In this document: piece by piece, positions 15,757 to 42,732 of the stretch
Numbering within the stretch: position 1 is the first letter of the stretch
Layout: every line of letters starts with the position of its first letter
IMG/VR virus record: IMGVR_UViG_3300025012_000046
Coordinates: 35,506-99,505 of that record
Source: a virus
Reading direction: 5' to 3' (one strand)
DNA length: 64,000 bases
Program-made: the position numbers and the translations under genes
The notes under the pieces: model-generated
Seen by the model: the letters and a program-made list of their open reading frames with translations, nothing else
What the model was told of the DNA's origin: nothing
Database searches by the model: none

Positions 15757-15882
15757 ATGAAACACATATTTTTGATATTATGCTGTACCGGTTTGTTAAC
15801 ATCGTGCACAGTACAAATACCAGTTAAAAGATGTGGCGAATGTACTTGGTATCGGGTGGTGTGTGTTGAAGATTGCCGGTAG
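15757..15882 (+). CDS. Small Cys-rich lipoprotein (41 aa)
   Basis: MKHIFLILCCTGLLTS-C lipobox, then TVQIPVKRCGECTWYRVVCVEDCR; AGAGG RBS. Confidence 0.6.
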   Translation: MKHIFLILCCTGLLTSCTVQIPVKRCGECTWYRVVCVEDCR

Positions 15883-18824: not shown

Positions 18825-21047
18825 ATGTCATATGAATTAAATGGGATGGCCGCTGATATTTGGGCTAAAAAATATAAAGCAGATTCCGACACAACTATAG
18901 AAGATATGTGGAGAAGAACCGCCAAAGCAATGTCTTCAGTAGAGCAAGACAAAGAGTATTGGGAAAACGAATTTTACCAATTACAGTATGACTTCAAGTT
19001 CATTCCTGGCGGTAGGATAAACGCGGGAGCAGGCACACTAAATAATTATTTGTTAAATTGTGCCGTCCTGCCGGTAGAGGACTCTATAGATGGTATCTAC
19101 GAAGCTATTAAACGATCTGCGGTTATGGCCAAGTGTAACTACGGAATTGGCTTTGACTTCTCCTCGCTCAGACCTAAAGGAGATATTGTGTCAAAGGGCG
19201 GCGTGTCTAGCGGCCCTGTTAGCTTCATGCGTGTTTTTGACACAAGCGGGGCTATTATTGAAACCGGAGGTGGAAGACGCGCTGCGGCAATCGGGATACT
19301 CAGAGTCGATCATCCAGACATTCTTGAGTTTATTGATGCAAAAAGACAAGAAGGTGTACTGACTCAGTTTAACATAAGTGTAGGTATTACTGACGAGTTT
19401 ATTAACGCTGTTAAGAACAATGAAGACTTTGATCTAAGCTTTAAAGGAAAAGTATATAAGACCGTTAAGGCCAAAGAAATTTGGGATAAGCTGGTTAAGT
19501 CTGGGTATAATTATAATGACCCTGGAATTTTTTATATAGATCAAGTTAACAAGTGTAACAACGGCTATTACTTGTACGACATTGCTGCGTCCAACCCCTG
19601 TGGTGAAATTCCACTACCACCCTACGGTGTTTGTGATCTTGGTAACATAAATCTGACTAAATTTGTAGTAGACCCCTTCACTCCAGTCTTGCGAGGGACA
19701 AGCTATAAAGATGAGTGGAGTTACAATTTTAACTGGGCATCTTACGAAGATACTATTAAGACGGCTGTTAGATTTCTAGACAATGTTCTGGATGTTTCTG
19801 ATTATCCGTATAAAGAAATAGCAGACAGAGCAAAAGGGGATCGTAGAATAGGACTTAACGGAGTAGCAGGGTTAGGCTCGTTTTTGGCTATGCTAAGAGT
19901 GCCTTACGACTCAGCAGAAGCTATTGAGATAGCAAAAATTCTACAAGAATTCACAATGCGCACTGCATATAACGCGTCAGTAGAGTTGGCCAAAGAAAAA
20001 GGAGCATTTGCTAATTTTGACGCTGAAAAGTATACTAAAGCTGTGTTTATACTAAAGCACTTTACCGACTATGAACTTCTAGACGAAATTTATGATTACG
20101 GTATTCGCAACATAGCGCTGCTTACGATTCCACCTGTGGGTACTGGAAGTTTAATTGCTGGTAACATTTCAAACGGGCTAGAGCCTATATTTGCTCTTGA
20201 ATATAATCGTAACGTAAGGCAACTTGATGGCACTACTAAACAGGAGCCAGTTGAAGATTACGCGTGGAAATTATACAAACAAGCTAACAATACTGGAGAT
20301 ACTACTTTACCAACTAGTTTCTTTAAAACGTCAAGAGAAATTTCACCTAAAGCTCACGTAGATATGCAGGCTGCTTTGCAGGAATTTATTGATGGGTCTA
20401 TAAGTAAAACCGCTAACATACCAGAAAGTTTTACTATAAAAGAGTACGAAGAGTTACTTTGGTATGCCCTTGACAAAGGGTGTAAGGGCTTCACTACTTT
20501 TAGAGAAGGAACCAGAGAAGGTGTATTGGAGACTAAAAAAGAAAAGCCTAAAGTTCAACAGGAAGAGAAAATAAAGTCAGTTGAGCCAAAAAAGAAACGA
20601 CCTAGAGCACTTGACGGTAAGACCTATAAACTGAAAGATGACTTAGGCAACTTATACGTTACTATTAACGACATAGAAGAAAGAGGCAAGACTAAGCCTT
20701 TTGAAATATTTATTAATAGTAATGGCGAGAACTCTCAGTACGCTCCTTGGTACAGAGCTATGGGTAAGTTAATGTCTGCTGTTATGAGGAGAACAGACGA
20801 TTGTAGCTTCATGGTAAAGGATTTACAGTCAATATACGGGCAGCATGGCTTCTTTTCAGACGGGACTTATGTGCAATCCCAACCACAGATGGTGGGAAAT
20901 GTACTACGAGAGCATTTAGATAGCCTTAACCCTGACGTTAAAAAGGAAGTTAAGCACCTTAAATGCCCTGAATGTGGAGAGATGAGTTACGTTAAGGAGG
21001 GTGGTTGTAGTAAGTGTCTTAGTTGCTCTTACTCTACTTGTGGTTAG
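18825..21047 (+). CDS. nrdJ: Class II (adenosylcobalamin-dependent) ribonucleotide reductase with TSCPD/Zn-finger C-terminus
   Basis: PGGRI, NCAV, NPCGEIPL..CDLG, PPVGT, SISKT; C-terminal CPEC..CLSCSYSTCG; no beta subunit in window. Confidence 0.92.
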   Translation: MSYELNGMAADIWAKKYKADSDTTIEDMWRRTAKAMSSVEQDKEYWENEFYQLQYDFKFIPGGRINAGAGTLNNYLLNCAVLPVEDSIDGIYEAIKRSAVMAKCNYGIGFDFSSLRPKGDIVSKGGVSSGPVSFMRVFDTSGAIIETGGGRRAAAIGILRVDHPDILEFIDAKRQEGVLTQFNISVGITDEFINAVKNNEDFDLSFKGKVYKTVKAKEIWDKLVKSGYNYNDPGIFYIDQVNKCNNGYYLYDIAASNPCGEIPLPPYGVCDLGNINLTKFVVDPFTPVLRGTSYKDEWSYNFNWASYEDTIKTAVRFLDNVLDVSDYPYKEIADRAKGDRRIGLNGVAGLGSFLAMLRVPYDSAEAIEIAKILQEFTMRTAYNASVELAKEKGAFANFDAEKYTKAVFILKHFTDYELLDEIYDYGIRNIALLTIPPVGTGSLIAGNISNGLEPIFALEYNRNVRQLDGTTKQEPVEDYAWKLYKQANNTGDTTLPTSFFKTSREISPKAHVDMQAALQEFIDGSISKTANIPESFTIKEYEELLWYALDKGCKGFTTFREGTREGVLETKKEKPKVQQEEKIKSVEPKKKRPRALDGKTYKLKDDLGNLYVTINDIEERGKTKPFEIFINSNGENSQYAPWYRAMGKLMSAVMRRTDDCSFMVKDLQSIYGQHGFFSDGTYVQSQPQMVGNVLREHLDSLNPDVKKEVKHLKCPECGEMSYVKEGGCSKCLSCSYSTCG

Positions 21048-21052
21048 CAAAT

Positions 21053-21625
21053 ATGTCTAAGTGGAAGTGGGATGAAAGTTTAACAGATTTTTTGCCTGGA
21101 GCCAATTTTAAAGATAGAACAGGTATAGTATATAGTCAACTAACTTGCTTATATCCTACAGGAAGAAAACCAAAACATACCTATTGGATGTGCATATGTT
21201 CATGTGGTAATTTTATAGAAGTTTCATCCAATAATTTACATACATATACAACTACGTCGTGTGGTTGCAGGAGAATAGGTGAAACAAATCCAAGGTGGAG
21301 TGGTTACAAAGAAATACCAGGAAGCTATCTTAAAAACTTAAAGAGCAGCGCAGAAACTCGTAATATAAAAGTTGAAATAACCATAGAAGACCTGTGGAAT
21401 AAATTAGTTGGGCAAGATTTTAAGTGTGCTTTATCTGGACTAACTATAGGATTTAAAGGTAAGCGCGGAAGCGAAAATACCGCATCGTTGGACAGAATAG
21501 ACTCCAATAAAGACTATGTTTTGAGCAACGTACAATGGCTACATAAAAACATTAATAAAATGAAATGGGATTTAGACCAAGACTTGTTTATACAATACTG
21601 TAAGCTTATAGCAAACAACAAATAA
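21053..21625 (+). CDS. HNH-type homing endonuclease
   Basis: WMCICSCGN..TTSCGC repeat; CALSG..SLDRIDSNKDYVLSNVQWLHKNINKMK. Confidence 0.85.
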   Translation: MSKWKWDESLTDFLPGANFKDRTGIVYSQLTCLYPTGRKPKHTYWMCICSCGNFIEVSSNNLHTYTTTSCGCRRIGETNPRWSGYKEIPGSYLKNLKSSAETRNIKVEITIEDLWNKLVGQDFKCALSGLTIGFKGKRGSENTASLDRIDSNKDYVLSNVQWLHKNINKMKWDLDQDLFIQYCKLIANNK

Positions 21626-22375: not shown

Positions 22376-22681
22376 TTAACTAATTACCTTAGATATAAGC
22401 GCTAGAAACTCTCTAGCGTCCTTAAACTCAATCTCTCTTTCAACCGCATCTGCTAGCCAACCATTTAAAACCTTCCACTGCTTATTATCTATCTTTTTAT
22501 GTGTAGATATTTTATCTTTAAGAGATTCATACCTCTTATACTTCAATAAACCGCTATCTTCTAAACAAACAGCCCACTTCTCGTTTAACCTGACTGCTAC
22601 GCCTTGGTATCTTGTTATTCTAAGTAAATTCCAAAACGAAGATAGTTTATACGTTATTATTTCTAGGTTTACAGTTTTCAT
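22376..22681 (-). CDS. Hypothetical protein
   Basis: ATGA-coupled ORF. Confidence 0.6.
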   Translation of the reverse strand: MKTVNLEIITYKLSSFWNLLRITRYQGVAVRLNEKWAVCLEDSGLLKYKRYESLKDKISTHKKIDNKQWKVLNGWLADAVEREIEFKDAREFLALISKVIS

Positions 22682-23050
22682 GGTTGTGGATTAACTATAT
22701 TGTTAACTATTTTGCTAACTTCAGCGTAAGCTTCTACCTTCTTCTTGCCGTCCTCTGCTTCTTTCTTCATAACAGCAACTTGGTCTACTACGTTAACTAC
22801 ATTAATAGCCTTTTGGGTCACAGCCTCTACTTTTGAGGTATCAGAACCTATAGCATGTATCCCACTAGTAGCCATAGCACCAGTAAACATTATTGTGGCT
22901 TCGTTTACAGGCACAGTTCCGGTTGCCATCCCGTAAACAGCTACACCAGCGGAAGCTAGTTGCACAACTCCCTTACCAGTTGACATTGGATCGCTTTTAG
23001 CATTTTTTAAAAAGTTTTTTATAAACTGTCCTATTTTTTTTTTTAAACAT
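22678..23050 (-). CDS. Putative membrane protein (holin-like); N-terminus out of frame at an A11 run
   Basis: AGGAG RBS and ATG at 23050; with A10 it reads MFKKKIGQFIKNFLKNAKSDP into the 22678..22986 ORF, which has two weakly hydrophobic segments. Confidence 0.5.
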
Positions 23051-23058
23051 ACATACTC

Positions 23059-23637
23059 CTATGCAGCTATCTTATAGTTGTTAGTGTAAGCGTAAACTCT
23101 ATTTTTATATACATTTATATTGTGGTCTTTAATATCTATCCCGCCGTCATTATCGTGTAAAATTAAGCTAGGAGCCTCTAGATGTTTATACAGCAGTTTA
23201 GGTATCATTGGTACAGGGTCATCGTCACAAATAACCCTATAGTGATTTAAAGAAGGCCCTTTGAAGAACTTAAAATACACTCTAGGACAGCCAAAGCTCA
23301 CTACAGGCTTATCAAAAGCTTCACCTAGAAGAACAGCAATTGCACCGCCAAGTGAATGTCCAGTAAAAACTACATTATCACCTAAATCTTTAAAGTGGTC
23401 TTGCAGCACTTTAAACGCGCTGATAAATCCTTTATGCCCTAAAAATCCTTTTGGAGTTTTACTTGGAAATACTCTTAAGTCTCTAGCTACGTTTTTATTG
23501 TTGTCTGTGCCTCTAATAGCAATGTAAGTAGTTCCGTTTCGTGTTGTTTTGGTGTAATAAAGGTCATCTACTTTAACGCAATTCTGGTCAAAATAGCTTT
23601 CGTAGCAAAGATCAATACACGTTATAAGATGTTCCAT
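23059..23637 (-). CDS. Lipase class 3 (alpha/beta hydrolase)
   Basis: IAIRGT, HKGF, FTGHSLGGA, SFGCPR, DPVP, C-terminal DH. Confidence 0.92.
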   Translation of the reverse strand: MEHLITCIDLCYESYFDQNCVKVDDLYYTKTTRNGTTYIAIRGTDNNKNVARDLRVFPSKTPKGFLGHKGFISAFKVLQDHFKDLGDNVVFTGHSLGGAIAVLLGEAFDKPVVSFGCPRVYFKFFKGPSLNHYRVICDDDPVPMIPKLLYKHLEAPSLILHDNDGGIDIKDHNINVYKNRVYAYTNNYKIAA

Positions 23638-23645
23638 ATTGGCCT

Positions 23646-23927
23646 CTATTTAATGACAGCACTGTTAACGCTGTTGTTTAGTAAACTGCTCCCAACTCCA
23701 GCTATCCCTGTAGGCACTGCTTCGGTTAGATTGTCGAAGAGCGAACGGTTGCCTCTGTTGTCAACTGATATTTTTACCTTGTAGTCTTGAAACTCAAACT
23801 TAGCGTCGTGCTGAGAGTTAATAACATAAGTTTCACCGGAAGGTAGCGTTATGTTAGACTGACGAGAGCCTAGCGTGGAACATCCAGTTAATGTTAGGCA
23901 TATGATTAGTATGGGTAGTGGTTTCAT
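23646..23927 (-). CDS. Lipoprotein
   Basis: MKPLPILIICLTLTG-C lipobox. Confidence 0.75.
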   Translation of the reverse strand: MKPLPILIICLTLTGCSTLGSRQSNITLPSGETYVINSQHDAKFEFQDYKVKISVDNRGNRSLFDNLTEAVPTGIAGVGSSLLNNSVNSAVIK

Positions 23928-23942
23928 ATTTATTTTACTAGT

Positions 23943-24041
23943 TCACGACTCTATATTAGAGTGGCTGTAAATTCCAAGCGTCCAGAGGCAGATAATACGC
24001 GAATACAGTGTATGGTTCTTCTTGCGGAAAGCGACTTTCAT
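23943..24041 (-). pseudogene. 32-aa remnant, probably the N-terminus of a permuted NlpC/P60 (YiiX-like) phage protein
   Basis: GGAGG RBS, then MKVAFRKKNHTLYSRIICLWTLGIYSHSNIES*; the WT..YSH pattern ends just after the His. Confidence 0.5.
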
Positions 24042-24083
24042 GCTACCTCCACAGTTATGATCTTAGTTCGTACCGGCAGGGCC

Positions 24084-27000
24084 TTACCCACCATCTGTGC
24101 CTAACGTTACATCCTTCCAAGCAAAGGTAGTACCTCCGTCAGTAGATACACATATCTGTAACTGGTCGGTGCCGCTGGTCTGTTTGTGCGCCCACAACGT
24201 CAACCGTGTTGCCGCCGCGCATGTGGGGCGGGCAAAGTTAGGAGCGGTGCCCCCTTCTGTGCTGCCGGTCAATTGCATCCCGCTATCGTTGCGGAGGGTC
24301 AGGTTAATCGCCCCAGTGCTGCCTACGCTGCCCATAAGTAAGTCGGTGGGGATAGTGTCACCCGATACTGTTCCGTTGATTTTGGCGTAAAGTTGCGCTC
24401 TCATCTGATAATCAGGACTTGCCCCACCATAGGCATACCATCGGAAGCCACCTAAGATATGAGTATCAGCCATAGCGGAGGGGGAAGCCCAACTGCCTTG
24501 TGATGCTGACATGACTATCCAGGGTCCACGCGGATTAGTGGAGCTGGAACGGCCAAACCAAGGGCCGCGCGTGTTGGTTGTGCCTTCGTCAACTGTTAAG
24601 AAAGGGTGTGCATTGGTGCCAGCGGCGGTGCTTCCTGGTGCTGCCGTGCCTATGGACAGCCTGCCGCCTGATAGGCGCATTTGTTCGGTATTGTCCTCAG
24701 TGAAAGAAAGGTATCCATCTGAGGTATCAGTGGCAGTTATGGAGGTGTCGCCAGCGCCTACAGATGTTGCCGCACCTGACACGACACTTTCAACCTGATA
24801 AACCCCCGTTGTTGAATCCAAGGGGGCAATAACAGCGCCCTTATACGCGCCCAATGTCCAAGCTGCGTTACTTCTGGCACCGTTAATATTGAAGTAATCA
24901 CCAGCAGAAGCACTATCAATGGTCATGTCTGAAGATGTATTATTGACCAGCAGCGTTCGTGCTGGCTTTGTCGTATAAGTTGACCCGGTGCTAATAATCT
25001 GTGGCACTGTGTGCGCCGTCCCTCCCGTAAAAATAACCACCTTTCCAAAGTCACTTACACTAGGATTCTGACCATCGCCATAGGATACTATGGCGCTGTA
25101 TTGCATCCCCCCAGCGCCGGTAAGCTGTGACCCATCCCCAATAAACGCCGTTGCTTTGACATTGCCGCCAACTTCCAACGCTTCCGTAGGGTCAGAGGTA
25201 AATTGACTTGGATTGCCAGAACGAGCTAAATTGATACCTACATAGCCATCCTTAGTTATTCGTAGCCCTTCGGTTTCGATTGTAGAATCTGTAGGAATGG
25301 TGTAAAGAGAAGTCCGAAATGGATTGGACGTTGCGGACCATGCACCTTGAGATACAGAGTCTTGAGTGATTTTACCTACTGTAAATTTAGAATTATCAGC
25401 ATTGGTTCCTGAAGCAGTAGCCCCCTTTACCTGGAATACTCCCAACCTCATACCATCGGTAATCGCAGTGAAACTTTCTTTTGTCCCACCTGCACGTTGA
25501 AAAACATGTCTTGCGGCTCCGGCTGCGGTATCCTGAAATGAAGCTATGGCGAAGCCGGTAGAACCATTCGATGAGCCGTGTACATCATAAATAGCTTCGG
25601 TAGTGGACATATTACCAAAGGCCACCCTCCCATTACTTGCATTCACCTTCAAAGTGGAGTGGGTAAAGCCACCAGCCCCATCGGTTATCTGCACCGCTCC
25701 GGTCTGCCCACTGGACACCGCCCCGCCTGCCCCTGCCTGCCACGAACCGTCATCGCGTAAAAACTTGGTGCCAGTGCGTGTTCCAGACCCTAACCATGCA
25801 GGATTCGCGTAGGTCACATTTGCAGGGTTAGACATAAGAACCATTGAGGTCGAGCTGTTGATTATATTGGTTCCTGATATTGTTCTAAACTCGTTGAATC
25901 CAACTGTGCCAGTACAACCAGTCCCTATATTGATTCCATCGGTAAGATTAAACAGTATGTTACCTGTGATGGATGCAGAAAGAGTGTCAGTTATTTTAAT
26001 GCCTGTTGCCGCCGTACTCGCTGCACCCATGATTTCGTTGCCGGTAATAACAACATCATAAGCGTTATCTATATCAATTCCGTCAACGCCAGCGTTCCAT
26101 GCTCCTAATTCGTTGCCAGTTATCCAGATTCTACCCATACCATCACCAGCGGCATCTGATCTGATCTTGATAACAGCCCCAGACGTTCCTATGTAATTTT
26201 CAAAGGAACAGCCAGTAACCTGTAGAATGGTCAGAGCACCAACCGGGCCTTTGGTGGTTACGTTGTATTCAATAGCGGCAGTAAGGCCGTTGAACAGCTT
26301 GGAGTTTTCAATACTCAATCCACTGCCAGAAACAACATAGATAAGTTTATCCATGTTGTTGCCGCTGAACTGGCACTGTGTTATTCGATGATCGCCGCCG
26401 TCAGTGTCAGGATGGTCTATGTATAAACCGATAGCGCCAGTAGAGTTTGAGTGTATGCGACATAGGTGGAGTTTGGCAAAGTTTGCCTCATAAAGAGCTA
26501 TACCTATTTTATTATCAAGTACGTCCACTCGCACAATATCGGTATAACGAATATAAAGAGATGGATCGCCGGAATACGTCTTAGGCCCAACCGCAATTCC
26601 TGTCTGCCCTGTTCCTGGTGTACCTAATGGTGAAATAGTGAAGTCTTGTAAGGTACAGTTGAAAGATTTTATCCAAAGTATCTCACCTGCAAAATCACCT
26701 TTTATAATAGTCTTGTTGCGCCCCTGCCCTTCGATCTTGGTATTAACATCTAGGGTTTCATTGAGAACATACGTCTTCGGACCTAATACTACTTTCTTGG
26801 TAGTCCCGGCTGCAACAGATGCCTCCTTGAGTGCTGCGTAATCCACATACTGAGTGTTTACGTTAGTAATTCCGGCATTGGGCCATTTGGCTTGTGCCGT
26901 CCCTAATGTATAACCAGCAGATGCGAGGGTATGTGCTGAACCATCGCCTATGGGGTCATAGACATCTGCATAGACAATCAGCCCTACAGCGTTGAGGAGT

Positions 27001-27353
27001 TTGTACCAAAGGGGTTTTAGTAGCCCCGCACTGGTGGCTGTTGCATCTGGTATCCGGTCATCCCCACTAGATGTGTAGTGCTGTAGCGCGTGGGCTTTGG
27101 TAGCATACCCCTCCGCCACCCCATCATTCGTAGCCCTGCCCCCACCTGCGGAGGTATACGCCCCAAACCCCGCCTGCGTCTGGTAGGTGGCGGCGGCTTC
27201 CGTTTTGGGTAAGCGGTCAACGGTCGTGTAGTTTTTAAGAGCAGTATTGTCCTTAACCGGGACCCACGCTCCATCCTTACGCACATGGAGAGTAGGCGCA
27301 GCTATTGCTGCGGTACATATTAATGCTAGTGCGAGTGTGAGTAACTTTTTCAT
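24084..27353 (-). CDS. Tailspike/fibre-like protein with a parallel beta-helix (pectate-lyase-like) domain and N-terminal signal peptide
   Basis: MKKLLTLALALICTAAIA-A; ITGN/IENS beta-helix repeats; fibre motif GYVGIN..PTEALEVGGNVKATAFIGDGSQLT. Confidence 0.75.
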   Translation of the reverse strand: MKKLLTLALALICTAAIAAPTLHVRKDGAWVPVKDNTALKNYTTVDRLPKTEAAATYQTQAGFGAYTSAGGGRATNDGVAEGYATKAHALQHYTSSGDDRIPDATATSAGLLKPLWYKLLNAVGLIVYADVYDPIGDGSAHTLASAGYTLGTAQAKWPNAGITNVNTQYVDYAALKEASVAAGTTKKVVLGPKTYVLNETLDVNTKIEGQGRNKTIIKGDFAGEILWIKSFNCTLQDFTISPLGTPGTGQTGIAVGPKTYSGDPSLYIRYTDIVRVDVLDNKIGIALYEANFAKLHLCRIHSNSTGAIGLYIDHPDTDGGDHRITQCQFSGNNMDKLIYVVSGSGLSIENSKLFNGLTAAIEYNVTTKGPVGALTILQVTGCSFENYIGTSGAVIKIRSDAAGDGMGRIWITGNELGAWNAGVDGIDIDNAYDVVITGNEIMGAASTAATGIKITDTLSASITGNILFNLTDGINIGTGCTGTVGFNEFRTISGTNIINSSTSMVLMSNPANVTYANPAWLGSGTRTGTKFLRDDGSWQAGAGGAVSSGQTGAVQITDGAGGFTHSTLKVNASNGRVAFGNMSTTEAIYDVHGSSNGSTGFAIASFQDTAAGAARHVFQRAGGTKESFTAITDGMRLGVFQVKGATASGTNADNSKFTVGKITQDSVSQGAWSATSNPFRTSLYTIPTDSTIETEGLRITKDGYVGINLARSGNPSQFTSDPTEALEVGGNVKATAFIGDGSQLTGAGGMQYSAIVSYGDGQNPSVSDFGKVVIFTGGTAHTVPQIISTGSTYTTKPARTLLVNNTSSDMTIDSASAGDYFNINGARSNAAWTLGAYKGAVIAPLDSTTGVYQVESVVSGAATSVGAGDTSITATDTSDGYLSFTEDNTEQMRLSGGRLSIGTAAPGSTAAGTNAHPFLTVDEGTTNTRGPWFGRSSSTNPRGPWIVMSASQGSWASPSAMADTHILGGFRWYAYGGASPDYQMRAQLYAKINGTVSGDTIPTDLLMGSVGSTGAINLTLRNDSGMQLTGSTEGGTAPNFARPTCAAATRLTLWAHKQTSGTDQLQICVSTDGGTTFAWKDVTLGTDGG

Positions 27354-27367
27354 TTATATCCTCCGGC

Positions 27368-29566
27368 TTATTCTATTACGAAAGGCTGCCCTGCTGTCCA
27401 ACTCCCTGTCTGTGTTCCACCTTCGGTCTTATTCTCTATTACACGTACTTTAGGTGTATATGTTCCAGTGCTTAGTTTAGAGATTGATACGTTATACCCA
27501 GCACCTTGGAACGCTGATACATCTGAAGTCTCAGTTAGCGATACTGTTCTGCTATCAGCTATGGCAGCATCTTCATCAGCGTCAGTACCACTTAATTGCC
27601 AGATGATCTGGATAGTGTTTATTGTGTCACCGGTGCCTATGCCTGATACTGTGCCTGTAATTGTGAATGTGGTGTTACTTAGTGGTTGTACCGCGCCGAT
27701 ATAAGTGTTGGTAAGCGAAGGATCGCCTGATGCCATAAAAGACGCTGTTGGTTTTAGCGCCGTCCTGACGTTGGATAGAACAGCCGTCAATGTGTACTCC
27801 GACGGAGTGACCCTTTGTGCGGGGCTACTATGATCCCATCCATTTATGGACACGATCCGTTGAGCACACACAGCGGTTGTGGCCGCATTACCACAGGCAG
27901 ATAAAACTGTAATGCCCCTGTTGGCGAACAGTGGGTCGCCGTAGCGGTCATGTGTGGCGTAGTCAGCACCAAAAGTTTGACCACTGATCCAAGCTACCCC
28001 GCCTCCTTCCGCGCCCATGTAGCTGTTTTGACTTGCTGCGTGAGTATGCCCTACCGGATAATCCAGATTCCCTGCGGTAGTGTTAAGATATGACGCGTTA
28101 TAGTCTAGTACCAGTTGGGTCTGTGCTTGATTGGCCTGTCGGTGAATACCGGCAGTTGCGGGAGACTCACCCGAATCCCATCCCATAAAGTTGTTTTTTA
28201 CTGTTTTGAGCATCGTTACTGGCGCTAAAGTTTCGCCGGTCTGAATTAAACTGGACTTTGCACCAACGACAGTATTGTTGATAACGTCTATATCCGTGTC
28301 CGCAGCCTGAGTACCGCCGACCAACGCCCCTATACCTGCCAGCCCAATGTTGTTTTTGACCGTTGCATAGCCATTAATGACTCCTTCACCATAATCACCG
28401 GCAGGCGTATTTATACCAGTGAAAATATTTCCATCAGCAACTAACCCGTTTCCAGCTCCGTCAATTATTGCGCTTCTATCTGCTGCAATGTAATGGGGAT
28501 TTATAACTGTATCTACCAGGAACAGAGAGTTACTGATTATCATGTTCTGACGATCTTTGGTCGCAATGCCCGTCCAGCCGGTAACTGCTATATCTCGCAG
28601 CAAAGCAACCTTATCATATGTTTGCCTGTTTAATGCCAACACTGGAGTTGATAAATTGGCTTTTGCGTCTATATGCGCGTTGTAGAGATATAAATTACTG
28701 ATTGATAAGTCAGCCATTGTGGTCGTAAACACCCGCGCTGTGACTGTGCCATAATAAGTAAGGTTTGTTATGCTTCGTGTAGCTCCAACGTCTTTTACTG
28801 TTGATCCATCCATCCACAGTGGGCCGCTGGCGCTGTATGCGATAGAGTTACGTATATCTACACCACTAAGATTTATTTCGGTATCAGCCAATGGAGTTGA
28901 TATTTTCATGGTGCCACAGCCGTCGAGCAGTACGTTCGACATTCTTACAATCTGACCGGTGACTGCTGCTTTTGGCACTATATTGACGCCATGCAGGTTA
29001 CTGGCGTTTTCGCCCAAATTGAGTAGTTTCACATAGCTGAAAATTAACTGCGTCCGTTCTGCTAGACTGATTGCGCCGTTATCGTTAGGGTCGGCAGTCG
29101 TGGCTACCCCATCTATTGTGGCGAACTCTCCCGCGCCCCATCCCGTGCCAGAGGCTTTGATATAGGCATAGGTTGTTCCCGCCCCCTCTGTAAGCAATGG
29201 TCTGCCCCCCGCACCACCCTTCAATCGCAGTATGCCCCCCGGCTTCACATCGACAGTAGCTCCAGATGAGGTTACAGTTATGTTGCTGGTAGATGTTAAA
29301 TCACCAAATACATTCAAGGTTCCGCCAGTTCCGGCTGACGCAGAGATAGTAATTCCTGCAATAGTCCGCGTATCTCCTGAAGTGACCGTAATAACATCAC
29401 TGCTCCTAATGGTGATGGTGTCGGTGTCTACCGGGATAGTCCCGCTAGGCCATGGAGCGTTAGGTGTAGTGCTGTTCCAGTTCCCTGTTCCAGCGGTAGT
29501 TATAGCTGCACCCCAAGAGTTACCTGTTATGAACAGCAAAGATATAATTAAAAGGAATAATCGCAT
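27368..29566 (-). CDS. Secreted beta-helix-rich protein (G8/adhesin-like N-terminus)
   Basis: MRLFLLIISLLFITGNSWG-A; TGNWNSTT..W..GTIP..DTITI start; VKNN/INNT repeats. Confidence 0.65.
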   Translation of the reverse strand: MRLFLLIISLLFITGNSWGAAITTAGTGNWNSTTPNAPWPSGTIPVDTDTITIRSSDVITVTSGDTRTIAGITISASAGTGGTLNVFGDLTSTSNITVTSSGATVDVKPGGILRLKGGAGGRPLLTEGAGTTYAYIKASGTGWGAGEFATIDGVATTADPNDNGAISLAERTQLIFSYVKLLNLGENASNLHGVNIVPKAAVTGQIVRMSNVLLDGCGTMKISTPLADTEINLSGVDIRNSIAYSASGPLWMDGSTVKDVGATRSITNLTYYGTVTARVFTTTMADLSISNLYLYNAHIDAKANLSTPVLALNRQTYDKVALLRDIAVTGWTGIATKDRQNMIISNSLFLVDTVINPHYIAADRSAIIDGAGNGLVADGNIFTGINTPAGDYGEGVINGYATVKNNIGLAGIGALVGGTQAADTDIDVINNTVVGAKSSLIQTGETLAPVTMLKTVKNNFMGWDSGESPATAGIHRQANQAQTQLVLDYNASYLNTTAGNLDYPVGHTHAASQNSYMGAEGGGVAWISGQTFGADYATHDRYGDPLFANRGITVLSACGNAATTAVCAQRIVSINGWDHSSPAQRVTPSEYTLTAVLSNVRTALKPTASFMASGDPSLTNTYIGAVQPLSNTTFTITGTVSGIGTGDTINTIQIIWQLSGTDADEDAAIADSRTVSLTETSDVSAFQGAGYNVSISKLSTGTYTPKVRVIENKTEGGTQTGSWTAGQPFVIE

Positions 29567-29577
29567 CCTAAAGTCTC

Positions 29578-29991
29578 CTATGGTACAAGATTGGTAACTG
29601 CTATAGTGGCGCTGGGAGGCTCGTTATATACTCCGTCAGGGTATACCCACATATCACCTTCTGATGGTGAAGTCGGGGCAGACGCTCCGTATGATATTTT
29701 CGCTACTCCTGAACCGCCTACCTTTTCTATCATTGCAGTAGATAAGTTTTGTAGTGTAGTGCTTTGAGCGTCCCACTTACTTCTATCTTCGTCGGAGACA
29801 TGTGGAGCAACCCCAGCCCCACCATGCGATCTTTGCCAATTAAGAGTAGCGCTGCTCAACTGCTTATGCCTAGTGCTGGATACACTACCAGTAGGAGTTA
29901 CGTCACCTGGAGCCGCAAACGCCTGTGCCAAGCACAATAGCGCAGCAGCTGCCACAGCAAGATACGTTAATTTACCTTTTATAAATTTCAT
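29578..29991 (-). CDS. Small secreted fibre-associated protein
   Basis: MKFIKGKLTYLAVAAAALLCLAQAFA-A; HVSDEDRSKWD and APTSPSEGDMW fibre-type motifs. Confidence 0.65.
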   Translation of the reverse strand: MKFIKGKLTYLAVAAAALLCLAQAFAAPGDVTPTGSVSSTRHKQLSSATLNWQRSHGGAGVAPHVSDEDRSKWDAQSTTLQNLSTAMIEKVGGSGVAKISYGASAPTSPSEGDMWVYPDGVYNEPPSATIAVTNLVP

Positions 29992-29992
29992 A

Positions 29993-32194
29993 TTAAAGCT
30001 CCACTATCTTAAGTATCTTATTGCCTTCTTCGTCTAGTCCGACTATAAGCGTATATGTAGTGGATACTCCAGTATCCTCGTCAGGTATAACTAAGCTTCC
30101 ACTCACAGCGCTGACTATCTCTACACCTCTTAGGTTTATTAAATACCCGCTAGAGATACTGTCGGCAAAAAACACAGGCTTACTGACGTTGCCTACAGCA
30201 GAAGGCTCTACTGGAGTTAAAGTACCAGCTGTACTTTCGGACAAATAAAATACTGTTCCAGGCGCTAGCCCAACCAAACCGTCAACATACCCAGCCACAG
30301 TTAAAGTAAATGTGTCAATGTCTGCTACGCTAGAAACAATCCCAATAACATCAGCAGTGTCTGCTACGTCAGCCAAAGATTTAACATAACCTAGACCATC
30401 GTGTCTTACTAAATTTCCTATAAAAAGACCGTGACTAGCTTGTGTTATTTCTTTGCTTATAGATGTTCCGCTACCAGCTCCTAAAGCCAAGTCATCTATT
30501 TTATCTAGAGCTTTCTGCACTGTATCTTCAGAGGCAGTTAAATTACCTGCAAACCCAGAAGTAGTTACTGATATAATACTAGCTTCGTGAGTAGAGGGAT
30601 GTGTGTAGTTATTAGCACTGGCCTCTATTCCAGCAAGCTTAGTTTTCTCTGTAGCTGTATAGGCCTTGTTAGTAGTTCCATCCGTAATTATGTCAGCGGA
30701 ATGAGTCTCTGGGTGTGTATAATTATTGGCGCTAGAAGCTATACCTGCTAGTTTAGTCTTCTCTGCCGCAGTAAAAGCTTTATTATTAGTACCATCAGTA
30801 ATTATGTCAGCAGAGTGTGTAGACGGATGAGAGTAGTTGTTAGCGCTCTCAGCTATACCACTTAGCTTAGTTTTTTCAGTTGAAGTAAACGCTTTATTAA
30901 CAGTTCCGTCGGTTATTATGTCAGCAGAATGTGTAGCAGGATGCGTGTAGTTATTTGCACCATCAGATACTCCAGCTAACTTTGTTTTTTCTGTAGCAGT
31001 GAATAATTTATTGGTTGTGCCAGCAACATGGTTATCAACGTTTCTATCAGCAGCATGGTAGTGTAAAGTGCTGTCACCGCCATCAGTAAGGTCTGTCCGT
31101 TGAGTCCCAGTTATATGATGGTGGTCGTTAGCAGCGCCACCTGAAAGTCCGGTTAGCCCTTCATGATCAGTCAGGCCAGAAATATCTGCCCACTCATATC
31201 CAGTATTAGTAGCGTTTCTCTTTAAAGCCTTGCTAGCAACTGGTGTAGGAACGTCTGCTATGTCTGTTAATACAGAGCCTGTTTTACTTACAGTATTCCA
31301 TGCCTGAGTTCCGCTATGGTTAGCTCTATCTCTGTCAGTATTGTGAAAATGCAGCGTTGTATTAACACCGTCGTCTAAAGCATTTAAGTTGGTTACAGAT
31401 ATAGTTACATCGTCTATTGTAGACAGTTTTTGAGTGTGGCTAAGCGGAGTTCTAGCATCACCAAGCCTTGAATCATTGTCGCCTACAGCTATTGGGTTAG
31501 TTGGGTCACTAGCGGCAGTAGATAGTTTAACAGCGCCTGCCACCATATTAGTAGCAGCACTTGTCTCACCTGTTACGATAGTGACTACAGTAGCTCCGTT
31601 AGTAGGGTCGTCAGAAACCTGTACGCCAGCACCAGTAAAGTTTAACTTTCCCTGTGCAGGGGCACTTACACCTTCGTCTTGTATTACATGGCCACCTCCT
31701 GACAACACTATGTCATTGAGTGTGGCAAGCGGGTTTGCTAACGAAGGATTATTAGCAGCATCCAGCGCAGAATTTTGCGCTGAAGTCAGATGTAAGCTCA
31801 TATCCTGCACATGTTGTGCAAACCCAGAAGTTTCGTTAGACGCTAATGTAGCGCCAGAAGCTTTAAATGTAGCCCAAGATAAAGCATCAGCTCCCTCAAC
31901 CAAAGGCGCTATAAAGTCTTTAATCCCAATATGATTTACAGAACATTTATAGAAAGCTGTCTCAGTGGCCCTTGACGTAGGCCAAAGCTGCACTGAGAAC
32001 TCAGCGTTGCTATCTGTTACAACTTCCTGAAGTACAGAAGCAATTCTTTCCCCACTTACGCTGTCAAAGAAATCATGTGCCTTACCGTACCTATCGCACA
32101 AAGTAAACGAAACTTCTATATTTGTAAGCAGATTACCAGCAGGGTCTTTTAGTCCTGCTCCGCTATTAGATATAGTGCGCAGAGTTAATGCCAT
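29993..32194 (-). CDS. Tail fibre protein with His-rich repeats
   Basis: DSRLGDARTPLSH, RANHSGTQ, 38-aa repeats, C-terminal LAPGTVFYLSESTAGTLT. Confidence 0.8.
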   Translation of the reverse strand: MALTLRTISNSGAGLKDPAGNLLTNIEVSFTLCDRYGKAHDFFDSVSGERIASVLQEVVTDSNAEFSVQLWPTSRATETAFYKCSVNHIGIKDFIAPLVEGADALSWATFKASGATLASNETSGFAQHVQDMSLHLTSAQNSALDAANNPSLANPLATLNDIVLSGGGHVIQDEGVSAPAQGKLNFTGAGVQVSDDPTNGATVVTIVTGETSAATNMVAGAVKLSTAASDPTNPIAVGDNDSRLGDARTPLSHTQKLSTIDDVTISVTNLNALDDGVNTTLHFHNTDRDRANHSGTQAWNTVSKTGSVLTDIADVPTPVASKALKRNATNTGYEWADISGLTDHEGLTGLSGGAANDHHHITGTQRTDLTDGGDSTLHYHAADRNVDNHVAGTTNKLFTATEKTKLAGVSDGANNYTHPATHSADIITDGTVNKAFTSTEKTKLSGIAESANNYSHPSTHSADIITDGTNNKAFTAAEKTKLAGIASSANNYTHPETHSADIITDGTTNKAYTATEKTKLAGIEASANNYTHPSTHEASIISVTTSGFAGNLTASEDTVQKALDKIDDLALGAGSGTSISKEITQASHGLFIGNLVRHDGLGYVKSLADVADTADVIGIVSSVADIDTFTLTVAGYVDGLVGLAPGTVFYLSESTAGTLTPVEPSAVGNVSKPVFFADSISSGYLINLRGVEIVSAVSGSLVIPDEDTGVSTTYTLIVGLDEEGNKILKIVEL
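30585..31030 (-). repeat. About four tandem 114-bp (38-aa) coding repeats
   Basis: Equivalent positions at 30597, 30711, 30825 and 30939; unit ANNYTHPATHSADIITDGTVNKAFTSTEKTKLSGIAES. Confidence 0.9.
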
Positions 32195-32224: not shown

Positions 32225-32269
32225 CTACTATATTTATATACACAAAAACGGCAAAAATTATTAATTTTT
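32225..32269 (-). promoter_or_regulatory. Putative late promoter element, copy 1
   Basis: AAAAATTA-A-TAATTTTT, 14 bp, TATAAATA on the - strand; upstream of 32194. Confidence 0.75.
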
Positions 32270-41812: not shown

Positions 41813-42732
41813 TTAGGCTACTAGTTTAGTGTTTATGAACTCTATGAATTGCTCTCTTGTGTTGTTACCATAACCATAAGTTTTATGAAATTCTACGTGA
41901 CATTTCTTACATAAATAAACTCCATTATTAACATCTGTTCTAAGCTCTGGGTTACTTCTATAGCTTTCTAAGTGGTGCGCGTTACCATTATGTGTATATT
42001 TACCACAACATTGGCAAATGTTTTTGTACTTTTTGTATATTATTAGTGTCCATTCTTTATACTCAGGTATTGCGCGCCTATCAATTCTATCCTCTTCAGT
42101 TAAGTTTGAATTATACTGTGGTGTAGTGACCCAGTGTGCGTTCTGCTGTACTCACTCAGTCTTTTCGCACTAAGTTCTTTTTTATGACAACTACAACTAA
42201 CGGTTCCGCCGCTGGTTAATTGTCCAGTAACTACATTTATAACGTTTCCACAATCACATTTTACATCCCACCTGCTACCACCTTTTCCGTTTGATTTATA
42301 CTCCTTTATTACTACTAATCTACCAAATCTTTTTCCTAATAACTCCACGCCTGCTGGACCTTTGCGCATACAACCACAAGACAACATTTTTCCAGAATTC
42401 AAATGTCCAGTATATATTTCCTTTACGTTACCACAATCACATTTACATACCCAATATGACCTTTTCTTACCGCTGACTGTATACTCAGTTCTAGTAATAG
42501 CCACTAACATACCAAAACGCTTACCAGTTAAGTCATATCGTTTATCTTTTGTTAAGCAACCACATGAGCGTACATTTCCATGTTTTAATGTTCCGGCACT
42601 TACTTCCTTAACCGCGCCACATTCACACTTACATACCCAATACGCTATCTTTTTCTTTCTAGTAACGCCTTTATAAAGTACTGTTAATCTACCAAAAACT
42701 TTTCCGGTTAAATCTGTAGCAACATCACCCAT
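41813..42732 (-). pseudogene. HNH homing endonuclease, frameshifted near 42120
   Basis: Three DLTGKxFGxL..CKCDCG..SCGC repeats; the nuclease domain (CQCCG..NAHHLESY..NNGVYLCKKCHVEFH..KLVA*) continues in another frame to 41813. Confidence 0.85.

What the first reader, a model, noticed from the sequence alone, without database searches (positions are those of the whole stretch)
24084..29991. Three consecutive tail-fibre/tailspike-like genes with Sec signal peptides: a candidate exported-appendage system
Seen: all three begin with a basic-hydrophobic-cleavage-site leader (MKFIKGKLTYLAVAAAALLCLAQAFA-A, MRLFLLIISLLFITGNSWG-A, MKKLLTLALALICTAAIA-A). Their bodies carry fibre motifs and beta-helix domains. 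They sit behind a leaderless His-repeat fibre gene under the same late-promoter copy (32225). Close Cys pairs (CGNAATTAVC; C-terminal PTC..QIC) are disulfide-compatible, and the N-termini repeat NYTT/AYTS/HYTS/NLST. Established: tailed-phage virions assemble in the cytoplasm and their fibres normally lack signal peptides; disulfide formation and PglB-type N-glycosylation are periplasmic. Inference: these proteins mature in the periplasm and either dock on virions at lysis or act outside the cell (matrix or capsule degradation for release, receptor masking). This is the best candidate for an undescribed system in the window.
Basis: partly seen in the sequence, partly recalled or inferred. Interest (0 to 1): 0.85.

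Follow-up and report, generated by a model that had tools for sequence, protein, structure and literature searches.

The report
Phage fibre-like proteins with export signals
An uncultured T5-like phage puts bacterial secretion signals on three fibre- or tailspike-like proteins encoded just after its normal tail fibre, so these proteins probably mature outside the cytoplasm where the virus is built; this is unusual for tailed phages, and what they do there is unknown.

Summary
Three tightly packed late genes on the minus strand (137, 732 and 1089 aa) each start at a strong ribosome site with a textbook Sec/signal-peptidase-I leader. Only five real genes in the 99.5-kb phage genome have such a leader, and four of them are adjacent.

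A sister phage keeps leader-bearing genes at the same position, although their bodies differ.

The 732-aa protein is a right-handed beta-helix from a large family:
- Nearly all bacterial members carry a leader.
- About 20 members on other phage contigs have none and start, after Met, exactly at the cleavage site predicted here.
- The leader form recurs in at least four unrelated phage types.

Export is therefore very likely, but it was not tested with a trained predictor or an experiment.

Function is open. I favour exported glycan-binding or glycan-cutting proteins that act on the host envelope (0.4). The main rival is virion appendages that mature in the periplasm and dock at lysis (0.3).

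This scan has noted the same theme on about 80 other genomes, and I found no description of it in print.

The parts
32225..32254 (-). Late-promoter-like element (TATAAATA) upstream of the fibre operon
Evidence: No strong terminator follows before ORF C.
29993..32194 (-). Leaderless 733-aa tail fibre with His-containing repeats. The first ~480 aa and the last 33 aa are conserved in the sister phage. A ~127-aa knob (aa 574-700) is present only here.
   Evidence: PHROG tail-fibre families; alignment with L076.
29578..29991 (-). ORF A, 137 aa: Sec leader followed by a small fibre-like protein. Its start is coupled to the fibre stop (TAATATG).
   Evidence: The sister-phage equivalent (283 aa) keeps the leader, about 30 mature N-terminal residues and the last ~15 residues, and carries a phage-fibre repeat.
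29914..29991 (-). ORF A leader (aa 1-26), predicted cut after AFA
   Evidence: Three Lys in the n-region, an uncharged hydrophobic core, small residues at -3/-1; conserved in L076.
27368..29566 (-). ORF B, 732 aa: Sec leader, right-handed beta-helix, helical cap, C-terminal Ig-like domain
   Evidence: AlphaFold2 pLDDT 76.5. VIA best Z 19.4 to the cyanophage Pam1 tailspike, tied with polysaccharide lyases and epimerases. 138 homologues.
29510..29566 (-). ORF B leader (aa 1-19), predicted cut after SWG
   Evidence: Leaderless homologues start with Met plus the residue after this site. The leader is 72% identical at nucleotide level to that of the sister phage's different beta-helix gene.
28082..29506 (-). 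ORF B beta-helix (aa 21-495), starting directly after the leader with no separate N-terminal anchor domain
   Evidence: Secondary structure of the model; fold searches.
27684..29362 (-). Swapped core of ORF B: 86-87% nucleotide identity to a leader-bearing gene of an unrelated T7-like podovirus
   Evidence: blastn against L002-L004; context of L003.
27371..27667 (-). ORF B C-terminal Ig-like module (aa 634-732), shared with the sister phage's P0008. Elsewhere it is fused to a major tail protein and to lectin-like virion proteins.
   Evidence: The model is of low confidence here.
24084..27353 (-). ORF C, 1089 aa: Sec leader, fibre-like stalk, beta-helix, long distal part
   Evidence: Pfam Beta_helix E 3e-5, below the curated cut-off; partial NosD hit. 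It is homologous to a leaderless collagen-bearing fibre (P0003) and a leader-bearing fibre-like protein (P0002). The structure model failed.
27300..27353 (-). ORF C leader (aa 1-18), predicted cut after AIA
26940..27161 (-). ORF C N-terminal module (aa 65-138), 69% identical to P0002, which also has a leader
23946..24040 (-). 31-aa ORF with a GGAGG ribosome site, between ORF C and the lipoprotein gene
   Evidence: Sequence read; not examined further.
23646..23927 (-). 93-aa lipoprotein (lipobox LTGC). A lipoprotein sits at the same position in the sister phage.
23059..23637 (-). Leaderless class-3 lipase/esterase, 58% identical in the sister phage
   Evidence: Pfam Lipase_3 E 4e-14 and phrog_21992; synteny.

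Best explanation
After an ordinary leaderless tail fibre, the late fibre operon of this uncultured T5-like siphovirus encodes three fibre- or tailspike-like proteins that start with cleavable Sec-type signal peptides. They are made late, pass unfolded through SecYEG, are cut by signal peptidase I after AFA, SWG and AIA, and fold in the periplasm. There, and in the medium once the cell lyses, they most likely bind and cut a host envelope polysaccharide (capsule, O-antigen or matrix). In this reading they are exported receptor-destroying or egress factors: they keep progeny from sticking to the dying cell and its debris, and they hinder superinfection. They would not be parts built onto the particle in the cytoplasm. 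Shown here: the leaders, their conservation, the family distribution, the beta-helix fold of ORF B and the cassette exchange between phages. Inferred: export itself, the substrate and the benefit.
For: - The leaders meet the n/h/c and -3/-1 rules and are clustered: 4 of the 5 in the genome are adjacent.
- Starts are unambiguous.
- The sister phage (113-kb contig) keeps leader-bearing genes at the same place, although one body is a different beta-helix and the other is twice as long.
- In the ORF B family, about 50 of 59 bacterial loci have the conserved N-terminal motif directly behind a signal peptide, some with T9SS sorting domains. This is how bacteria use the fold outside the cell.
- The beta-helix of ORF B begins at residue 21 with no particle-binding N-domain.
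- Residues 1-630 are about 90% identical in a T7-like podovirus, whose particle has a different architecture, so no phage-specific anchor travels with the gene.
- The phage already has leaderless candidates for host recognition: a J-like tip protein and the 733-aa fibre.
- The same operon continues into a lipoprotein, a lipase and a holin-like gene, which are envelope and lysis functions.
- Bacterial exported tailspike-like glycanases are known, for example WceF (PMC7949094).
Against: - No trained predictor or experiment shows export.
- No catalytic site or substrate is identified. The fold match is generic: many beta-helix proteins are tied within about 2 Z units.
- ORF A and the stalk and distal parts of ORF C look like fibre shafts, which a soluble enzyme does not need.
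- The conserved gene junctions with swapped middles, and the Ig-like end of ORF B, are patterns typical of virion receptor-binding proteins.
- Leaderless phage homologues may be virion parts.
- A periplasmic enzyme made late can do little to polysaccharide already on the surface before lysis.
- The host, and so its envelope type, is unknown.
Confidence: 0.4

Rival explanations
1. Export, then dock: A, B and C are true virion appendages. They mature in the periplasm and join the DNA-filled, tailed particle in the interval after the holin opens the inner membrane and before the outer membrane breaks, or just after lysis. They may extend the leaderless fibre through conserved end-to-end contacts.
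For: - Fibre-like architecture of A and C (phage-fibre repeat in the sister A'; homology of C to a collagen-bearing leaderless fibre).
- Translational coupling of A to the fibre gene.
- The fibre's last 33 aa and both ends of A are conserved between the two phages while the middles vary, as expected for docking ends.
- The Ig-like end of B occurs on a major tail protein elsewhere.
- In another siphovirus (L008), two leader-bearing fibre-like genes sit between the J-like tip protein and a leaderless 877-aa fibre.
- The same theme was noted on many other phages by this scan (a lead only).
Against: - No tailed phage is known to assemble this way.
- ORF B has no anchor domain and is shared almost unchanged with a podovirus.
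- No motif is shared among A, B, C and the fibre.
- Conserved junctions can simply be recombination linkers.
- Later checks of sister claims in this scan priced this reading at 9-30 in 100.
Confidence: 0.3
2. Membrane tether for timing: the hydrophobic N-termini act as uncleaved or slowly cleaved signal anchors (SAR-like). They hold the enzymes inactive on the periplasmic face until the membrane is depolarised at lysis.
For: ORF A's hydrophobic core is long (about 19 residues) and Ala-rich. The operon ends in a holin-like gene with weakly hydrophobic segments (by eye).
Against: All three have canonical small residues at -3/-1. The cores of B and C are short and strongly hydrophobic, typical of cleaved leaders. 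Leaderless homologues begin exactly at the predicted cut.
Confidence: 0.1
3. Passive cargo, or leaders not used: the genes were picked up from the host or other phages (GC 0.48-0.50 against 0.39) and the leaders are relics. The proteins work from the cytoplasm and are released at lysis like ordinary free depolymerases.
For: Raised GC over 24-30 kb; bacterial relatives of ORF B are all leader-bearing; recent exchange with a podovirus.
Against: The leaders are kept in the sister phage across diverged or replaced bodies, and the leader DNA itself is a conserved junction. A lytic phage with tight gene packing would lose useless leaders, as about 20 other phage lineages evidently have.
Confidence: 0.08

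Closest known systems
Phage tailspikes and depolymerases with a right-handed parallel beta-helix (cyanophage Pam1 tailspike 7eea, phi29 gp12, CBA120 TSP3, HK620 tailspike)
   Same: Fold of ORF B (VIA Z 19.4, rmsd 3.3 A over 425 residues to 7eea). Position in a tail-fibre operon. Cassette-like exchange between phages.
   Different: Those proteins are leaderless, are made and attached in the cytoplasm, and have an N-terminal particle-binding domain. ORF B has a Sec leader, and its helix starts at residue 21.
Bacterial exported tailspike-like or beta-helix glycan enzymes: Pantoea WceF (PMC7949094), periplasmic AlgG (4nk6), PL6 alginate lyases, Vibrio RbmB
   Same: Export signal plus beta-helix acting on the cell's own envelope polysaccharide; structural neighbours of ORF B.
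   Different: They are encoded in host polysaccharide loci. WceF uses a Tat leader, not a Sec leader. Here the genes are late genes of a lytic-type phage and carry fibre-like extensions.
Secreted or cell-surface beta-helix proteins of Bacteroidota, Verrucomicrobiota, Acidobacteriota and others that share ORF B's N-terminal GSGNW...NAPWP motif
   Same: Same N-terminal module directly behind a signal peptide (59 loci). True sequence homologues.
   Different: Homology mostly covers only the first 60-120 residues. They are much larger proteins, some with T9SS sorting domains. They are chromosomal, not phage-borne.
Envelope-directed accessory genes at the end of siphovirus tail modules (T5 Llp, Cor of phi80/N15, lambda Lom)
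   Same: Exported proteins encoded next to tail-fibre genes that act on the infected cell's surface; a lipoprotein gene follows ORF C here. (Comparison from my own knowledge.)
   Different: Those are small lipoproteins or porin-like proteins that mask a protein receptor. They are not large fibre- or beta-helix proteins. No sequence similarity was tested or seen.
Signal-peptide genes reported in phages: Porphyromonas phages (Matrishin 2023, PMC10367356) and about 5% of prophage CAZymes (PMC13507307)
   Same: Phage-encoded proteins predicted to use the host Sec pathway and to modify the envelope.
   Different: Neither paper names tail fibres or tailspikes. The second excluded tail-fibre-like genes by design. 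Both deal with prophages.

Membership tests
Sec / signal peptidase I (type I) signal peptide | Positively charged n-region | tested here: met
   Net charge +3, +1 and +2 before the hydrophobic core in A, B and C.
Sec / signal peptidase I (type I) signal peptide | Uncharged hydrophobic h-region of about 7-20 residues | tested here: met
   Best 10-residue Kyte-Doolittle means are 2.7, 3.35 and 2.9, with no charged residue up to the cut. AlphaFold2 places a separate helix at residues 2-14 of ORF B.
Sec / signal peptidase I (type I) signal peptide | Small residues at -3 and -1, no Pro at +1 | tested here: met
   AFA|A, SWG|A and AIA|A.
Sec / signal peptidase I (type I) signal peptide | Leader kept in relatives; mature end matches leaderless relatives | tested here: met
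   Sister-phage equivalents keep leaders. About 20 viral loci and 25 database proteins start with Met plus the predicted +1 residue of ORF B.
Sec / signal peptidase I (type I) signal peptide | No twin-arginine (Tat) motif and no lipobox | tested here: met
   No RR in the n-regions. No [LVI][ASTVI][GAS]C before a Cys in A, B or C. The neighbouring 93-aa ORF does have LTGC.
Sec / signal peptidase I (type I) signal peptide | Positive call by a trained predictor, and experimental export and cleavage | not testable with these tools
   No SignalP or equivalent is on hand; no isolate exists.
Phage tailspike / tail-fibre depolymerase | Right-handed parallel beta-helix body | tested here: met
   ORF B: model pLDDT 76.5, strands 21-495, VIA Z 19.4 to a phage tailspike. 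ORF C is only inconclusive: Pfam Beta_helix 24 bits against a cut-off of 25.9, and the model failed at pLDDT 33.
Phage tailspike / tail-fibre depolymerase | N-terminal particle-binding (anchor) domain ahead of the helix | tested here: not met
   In ORF B the helix starts at residue 21, straight after the leader. ORF C has a 110-residue stalk of unknown role.
Phage tailspike / tail-fibre depolymerase | Leaderless, cytoplasmic synthesis and assembly | tested here: not met
   All three carry leaders.
Phage tailspike / tail-fibre depolymerase | Presence in purified virions; trimeric state | not testable with these tools
   Uncultured phage; no proteome.
Bacterial exported beta-helix glycan-modifying enzymes (WceF/AlgG type) | Export signal plus beta-helix | tested here: met
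   ORF B. The signal is Sec-type, not Tat as in WceF.
Bacterial exported beta-helix glycan-modifying enzymes (WceF/AlgG type) | Encoded in a host polysaccharide biosynthesis locus | tested here: not met
   The genes lie in a phage late operon between a tail fibre and lysis-type genes.
Bacterial exported beta-helix glycan-modifying enzymes (WceF/AlgG type) | Demonstrated activity on the cell's own glycan | not testable with these tools
   Host and glycan are unknown.
   0, 2 and 1 extended sequons in A, B and C, against 0.0, 0.7 and 0.9 in shuffles. The quoted NYTT and NLST have Leu at -2.

The most novel reading that the evidence does not exclude
These are real virion appendages made by an export-then-dock route. 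The fibre add-ons fold in the periplasm and are fitted onto finished particles only when the holin joins cytoplasm and periplasm. This would be a second, extracytoplasmic assembly compartment for tailed phages, used by several unrelated phage lineages.
Probability: 0.25. Interest if true: 0.9.

Novelty: new variant of a known kind. Interest (0 to 1): 0.6.

Why it matters
Tailed phages are taught to build their whole particle in the cytoplasm. Free depolymerases are thought to escape only at lysis.

A conserved set of Sec leaders on fibre- and tailspike-like late proteins would mean one of two things. Either phages pre-position glycan-active proteins in the host envelope, as a receptor-destroying or egress function comparable to viral neuraminidase, or part of the host-recognition apparatus matures outside the cytoplasm. 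Both would change three things:
- how receptor-binding proteins are predicted from genomes;
- how depolymerases are mined for biofilm or capsule removal;
- how phage-host range is modelled.

The ORF B family offers a natural experiment, because the same domain occurs with and without a leader in different phages and with a leader in bacteria. That makes the question testable.

Tried and rejected
- **Cultured phages:** the collection holds nothing like the region, ORF B, ORF C, the 733-aa fibre or a leaderless family member.
- **Orphan genes:** ORF A and ORF C have almost no relatives. ORF C has two and ORF A has none beyond itself.
- **ORF C structure:** the model from a 3-row alignment failed (pLDDT 33) and was not searched.
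- **Complex prediction:** the fibre tip (aa 538-733, three copies) with mature ORF A (three copies) gave no verdict, score 0.28 against a mark of 0.32. This is no evidence either way.
- **Scans that found nothing:** a viral scan with P0015 and a metagenome scan with P0006. The first broad alignment was too diverse to seed a locus search.
- **Lineage size:** scans with the fibre and the endolysin found only the one sister phage, so the lineage has two known members.
- **Disulfides:** C558/C567 of ORF B occur only in its 90%-identical relative. The leaderless P0003 also has a C-terminal Cys pair. Mature ORF A has no Cys.
- **N-glycosylation:** sequons are not enriched.
- **Profile libraries:** Pfam, PHROGs and NCBIfam name none of the three proteins above their cut-offs.
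- **Literature:** searches found no paper describing Sec leaders on tail fibres or tailspikes.
- **Host:** it could not be identified.


Full report
**What the window is.** The window is the right 64 kb of a 99.5-kb IMG/VR virus record, estimated 88% complete.
- Its head and tail genes are recognisable: terminase, portal, protease, major head protein, a 1413-aa tape measure and a 1240-aa J-like tip protein.
- The large terminase is only about 27% identical to those of T5 and its relatives.
- This is therefore an uncultured siphovirus distantly related to T5.
- No cultured phage matches the region under study.

**The observation.** Three ORFs lie back to back on the minus strand: 29578-29991 (A, 137 aa), 27368-29566 (B, 732 aa) and 24084-27353 (C, 1089 aa).
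- They sit directly behind a leaderless 733-aa fibre (29993-32194). That fibre follows a TATAAATA promoter-like element, with no convincing terminator in between.
- Each ATG has a GGAG or GGAGG site at the right distance. The start of A overlaps the fibre stop, and no downstream in-frame start has a ribosome site.
- Each protein opens with a basic n-region, an uncharged hydrophobic core and small residues at -3/-1 (AFA|A, SWG|A, AIA|A).
- A simple rule-based scan of every ORF in the whole genome flags only five real genes: these three, the lipoprotein just downstream (23646-23927, lipobox LTGC) and one 41-aa ORF elsewhere.
- Four adjacent leader genes out of about 130 is not chance. No trained predictor was available, so 'signal peptide' rests on the classical rules plus the comparative evidence below.

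**Comparative evidence that the leaders are real and selected.**
1. A sister phage (113-kb contig, loci L075/L076) is syntenic. Its gene order is J-like tip protein, a 264-aa gene, an M15 endolysin (81% identity), the fibre (83% identity over the first 480 aa), a 283-aa protein, a 1032-aa protein, a lipoprotein and a lipase (58% identity).
   - Both proteins after the fibre carry leaders.
   - The 283-aa protein shares with ORF A the leader, about 30 mature N-terminal residues and the last 15 residues. Its middle differs and holds a phage-fibre repeat.
   - The 1032-aa protein (P0008) has a different body from ORF B. It shares a very similar leader (72% nucleotide identity across the A/B junction) and the C-terminal ~100 residues.
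2. The core of ORF B (nt 27684-29362) is 86-87% identical in DNA to a gene in an unrelated T7-like podovirus (L002-L004). The protein is about 90% identical over residues 1-630. That gene also has a leader. It lies between the major head gene and tail tubular protein A, beside two further small leader-bearing ORFs.
3. An exhaustive profile search gave 138 relatives of ORF B.
   - Those that cover the N-terminus share a motif (GSGNW...NAPWP) that begins right after the predicted cut.
   - Roughly 70 have a signal peptide in front of the motif.
   - 25 start with Met followed at once by the residue I predict as +1.
4. Across species-representative bacterial genomes I found 59 loci, mostly Bacteroidota, with Verrucomicrobiota, Acidobacteriota, Ignavibacteriales and Planctomycetota.
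   - About 50 of them have the motif directly behind a classical leader, and none is leaderless.
   - Some relatives from the protein search carry T9SS sorting domains.
5. In IMG/VR the picture is the reverse. About 20 phage loci are leaderless, on contigs with terminase and portal genes.
6. Leaders occur only in this phage, its sister, the podovirus group, a further group (L078/L079) and a lambda-J-type siphovirus from another study (L008). In L008, two consecutive leader-bearing fibre-like genes lie between the J-like protein and a leaderless 877-aa fibre.

The leader is thus an optional module on one domain family. It is standard in bacteria, usually absent in phages, and consistently present in a few phage lineages. 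The leaderless forms mark the cleavage site.

**What the proteins are.**
- *ORF B* folds with good confidence (pLDDT 76.5). It has an N-terminal helix (the leader), a right-handed parallel beta-helix from residue 21 to about 495, a helical cap and a poorly modelled C-terminal domain.
  - Structure searches return phage tailspikes (cyanophage Pam1, Z 19.4), phi29 gp12, alginate epimerases and lyases, PL6 lyases and autotransporter passengers. All lie within about 2 Z units of each other.
  - The fold class is therefore clear, but the enzyme class is not.
  - Conserved polar residues (Arg264, Asn356, His358, Glu445) hint at an active site.
  - The C-terminal ~100 residues are a mobile Ig-like module. 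It is also found at the end of a major tail protein and at the start of lectin-like virion proteins.
- *ORF C* has only two relatives.
  - P0002 carries a leader and fibre repeats, and is 69% identical over residues 65-138.
  - P0003 is a leaderless fibre with collagen repeats whose beta-helix aligns with residues 132-737.
  - Profile hits to Beta_helix and NosD are below the curated cut-offs. Language-model neighbours are GH28-related or pectate-lyase-like proteins, which is a lead only. The structure model failed.
- *ORF A* is an orphan apart from the sister gene, with weak fibre-repeat leads.

- The Cys pair in ORF B is confined to its closest relative.
- ORF C's C-terminal pair has a counterpart in the leaderless P0003.
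- Mature ORF A has no Cys.
- N-x-S/T and extended PglB sequons are at shuffle level, and two of the four quoted strings are not sequons at all.
- The raised GC of 24-30 kb (0.48-0.50 against 0.39) recurs in the sister phage. It matches the GC of the podovirus copies, in line with exchange within a shared gene pool.

**Mechanism.** Export through Sec, with cleavage and folding in the periplasm, is the well-supported part; I put it at about 0.85. What the proteins do there is inferred.

I favour free exported glycan-binding or glycan-cutting proteins that act on the infected cell's envelope and, after lysis, on debris and neighbouring cells (0.4). The reasons are:
- ORF B has no anchor domain.
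- ORF B travels almost unchanged between a siphovirus and a podovirus.
- Its bacterial relatives are secreted or surface proteins.
- The phage has leaderless candidates for host recognition.
- The operon runs on into a lipoprotein, a lipase and a holin-like gene.

The main rival is export-then-dock (0.3). The reasons are:
- The fibre-like build of A and C.
- The coupling of A to the fibre gene.
- Conserved ends with variable middles in the fibre, A and B.
- The virion-type Ig-like module.
- The L008 arrangement.

A complex prediction of the fibre tip with ORF A gave no verdict. Signal-anchor tethering and unused relic leaders are less likely.

**Comparison with what is known.**
- Exported tailspike-like enzymes are known in bacteria, for example WceF, which is Tat-dependent (PMC7949094).
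- Signal peptides on phage genes have been reported for Porphyromonas prophages without naming tail parts (PMC10367356).
- Signal peptides were also reported for about 5% of prophage CAZymes, with tail fibres excluded from that count (PMC13507307).
- I found no paper describing Sec leaders on tail-fibre or tailspike-like proteins.
- This scan has already noted the theme on about 80 other genomes. Later checks upheld the observation but priced the export-then-assemble reading at 9-30 in 100. One of those notes describes leaders ending in an A-W-A/G motif in a T7-like phage, which resembles the podovirus group found here.

Noticed in passing
window 23646-23927 and 23946-24040 (minus strand): A 93-aa lipoprotein (lipobox LTGC) and a 31-aa ORF with a GGAGG site follow ORF C. 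The sister phage has a lipoprotein at the same spot. It could be a receptor-masking protein of the T5 Llp or Cor kind, or a spanin.
   Followed up: partly
window 23059-23637 (minus strand): A leaderless class-3 lipase/esterase is conserved (58%) in the sister phage, next to the lipoprotein and a holin-like gene. Its position recalls the envelope-lipid esterases (LysB) that some phages use to finish lysis.
   Followed up: no
window 22678-22986 (minus strand): A 102-aa protein has two weakly hydrophobic Gly/Ala/Thr-rich segments and a charged tail, which looks holin- or pinholin-like by eye. The holin type bears on whether periplasm and cytoplasm could mix before lysis.
   Followed up: no
window 29993-32194 (minus strand), aa 574-700 and aa 461-537: The 733-aa fibre has a ~127-aa knob and two extra His-repeat units that the sister phage's 533-aa fibre lacks. 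The last 33 aa are conserved in both.
   Followed up: partly
window 24001-30000: GC is 0.48-0.50 against 0.39 for the rest of the phage. The same rise is seen over the equivalent genes of the sister phage (L076 9-13 kb).
   Followed up: partly
L003 8697-11947: A T7-like podovirus carries three leader-bearing ORFs (129, 140 and about 648 aa) and a small membrane protein, inserted between the major head gene and tail tubular protein A.
   Followed up: partly
L008 4828-6825: A lambda-J-type siphovirus from a different study has two consecutive leader-bearing fibre-like ORFs (361 and 299 aa) between the J-like protein and a leaderless 877-aa fibre.
   Followed up: partly
window 27371-27667; proteins P0016, P0021, P0040: The C-terminal module of ORF B is a mobile Ig-like domain. 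It is also fused to the end of a major tail protein and to the front of lectin-like (ConA-type) virion proteins.
   Followed up: partly
window 42100-42732, window 21023-21625 and L076 5451-5990: Homing-endonuclease-type genes interrupt conserved modules. An HNH gene sits beside the tape-measure gene. A 200-aa ORF follows the 740-aa ORF at 18825-21047, which I take to be ribonucleotide reductase by eye only (untested). The sister phage has an extra 179-aa gene between the tip and fibre genes.
   Followed up: no
window 15757-15882 (plus strand): A 41-aa ORF has a lipoprotein-like leader (LTSC). It is the only other leader-like start among plausible genes outside the fibre operon.
   Followed up: no
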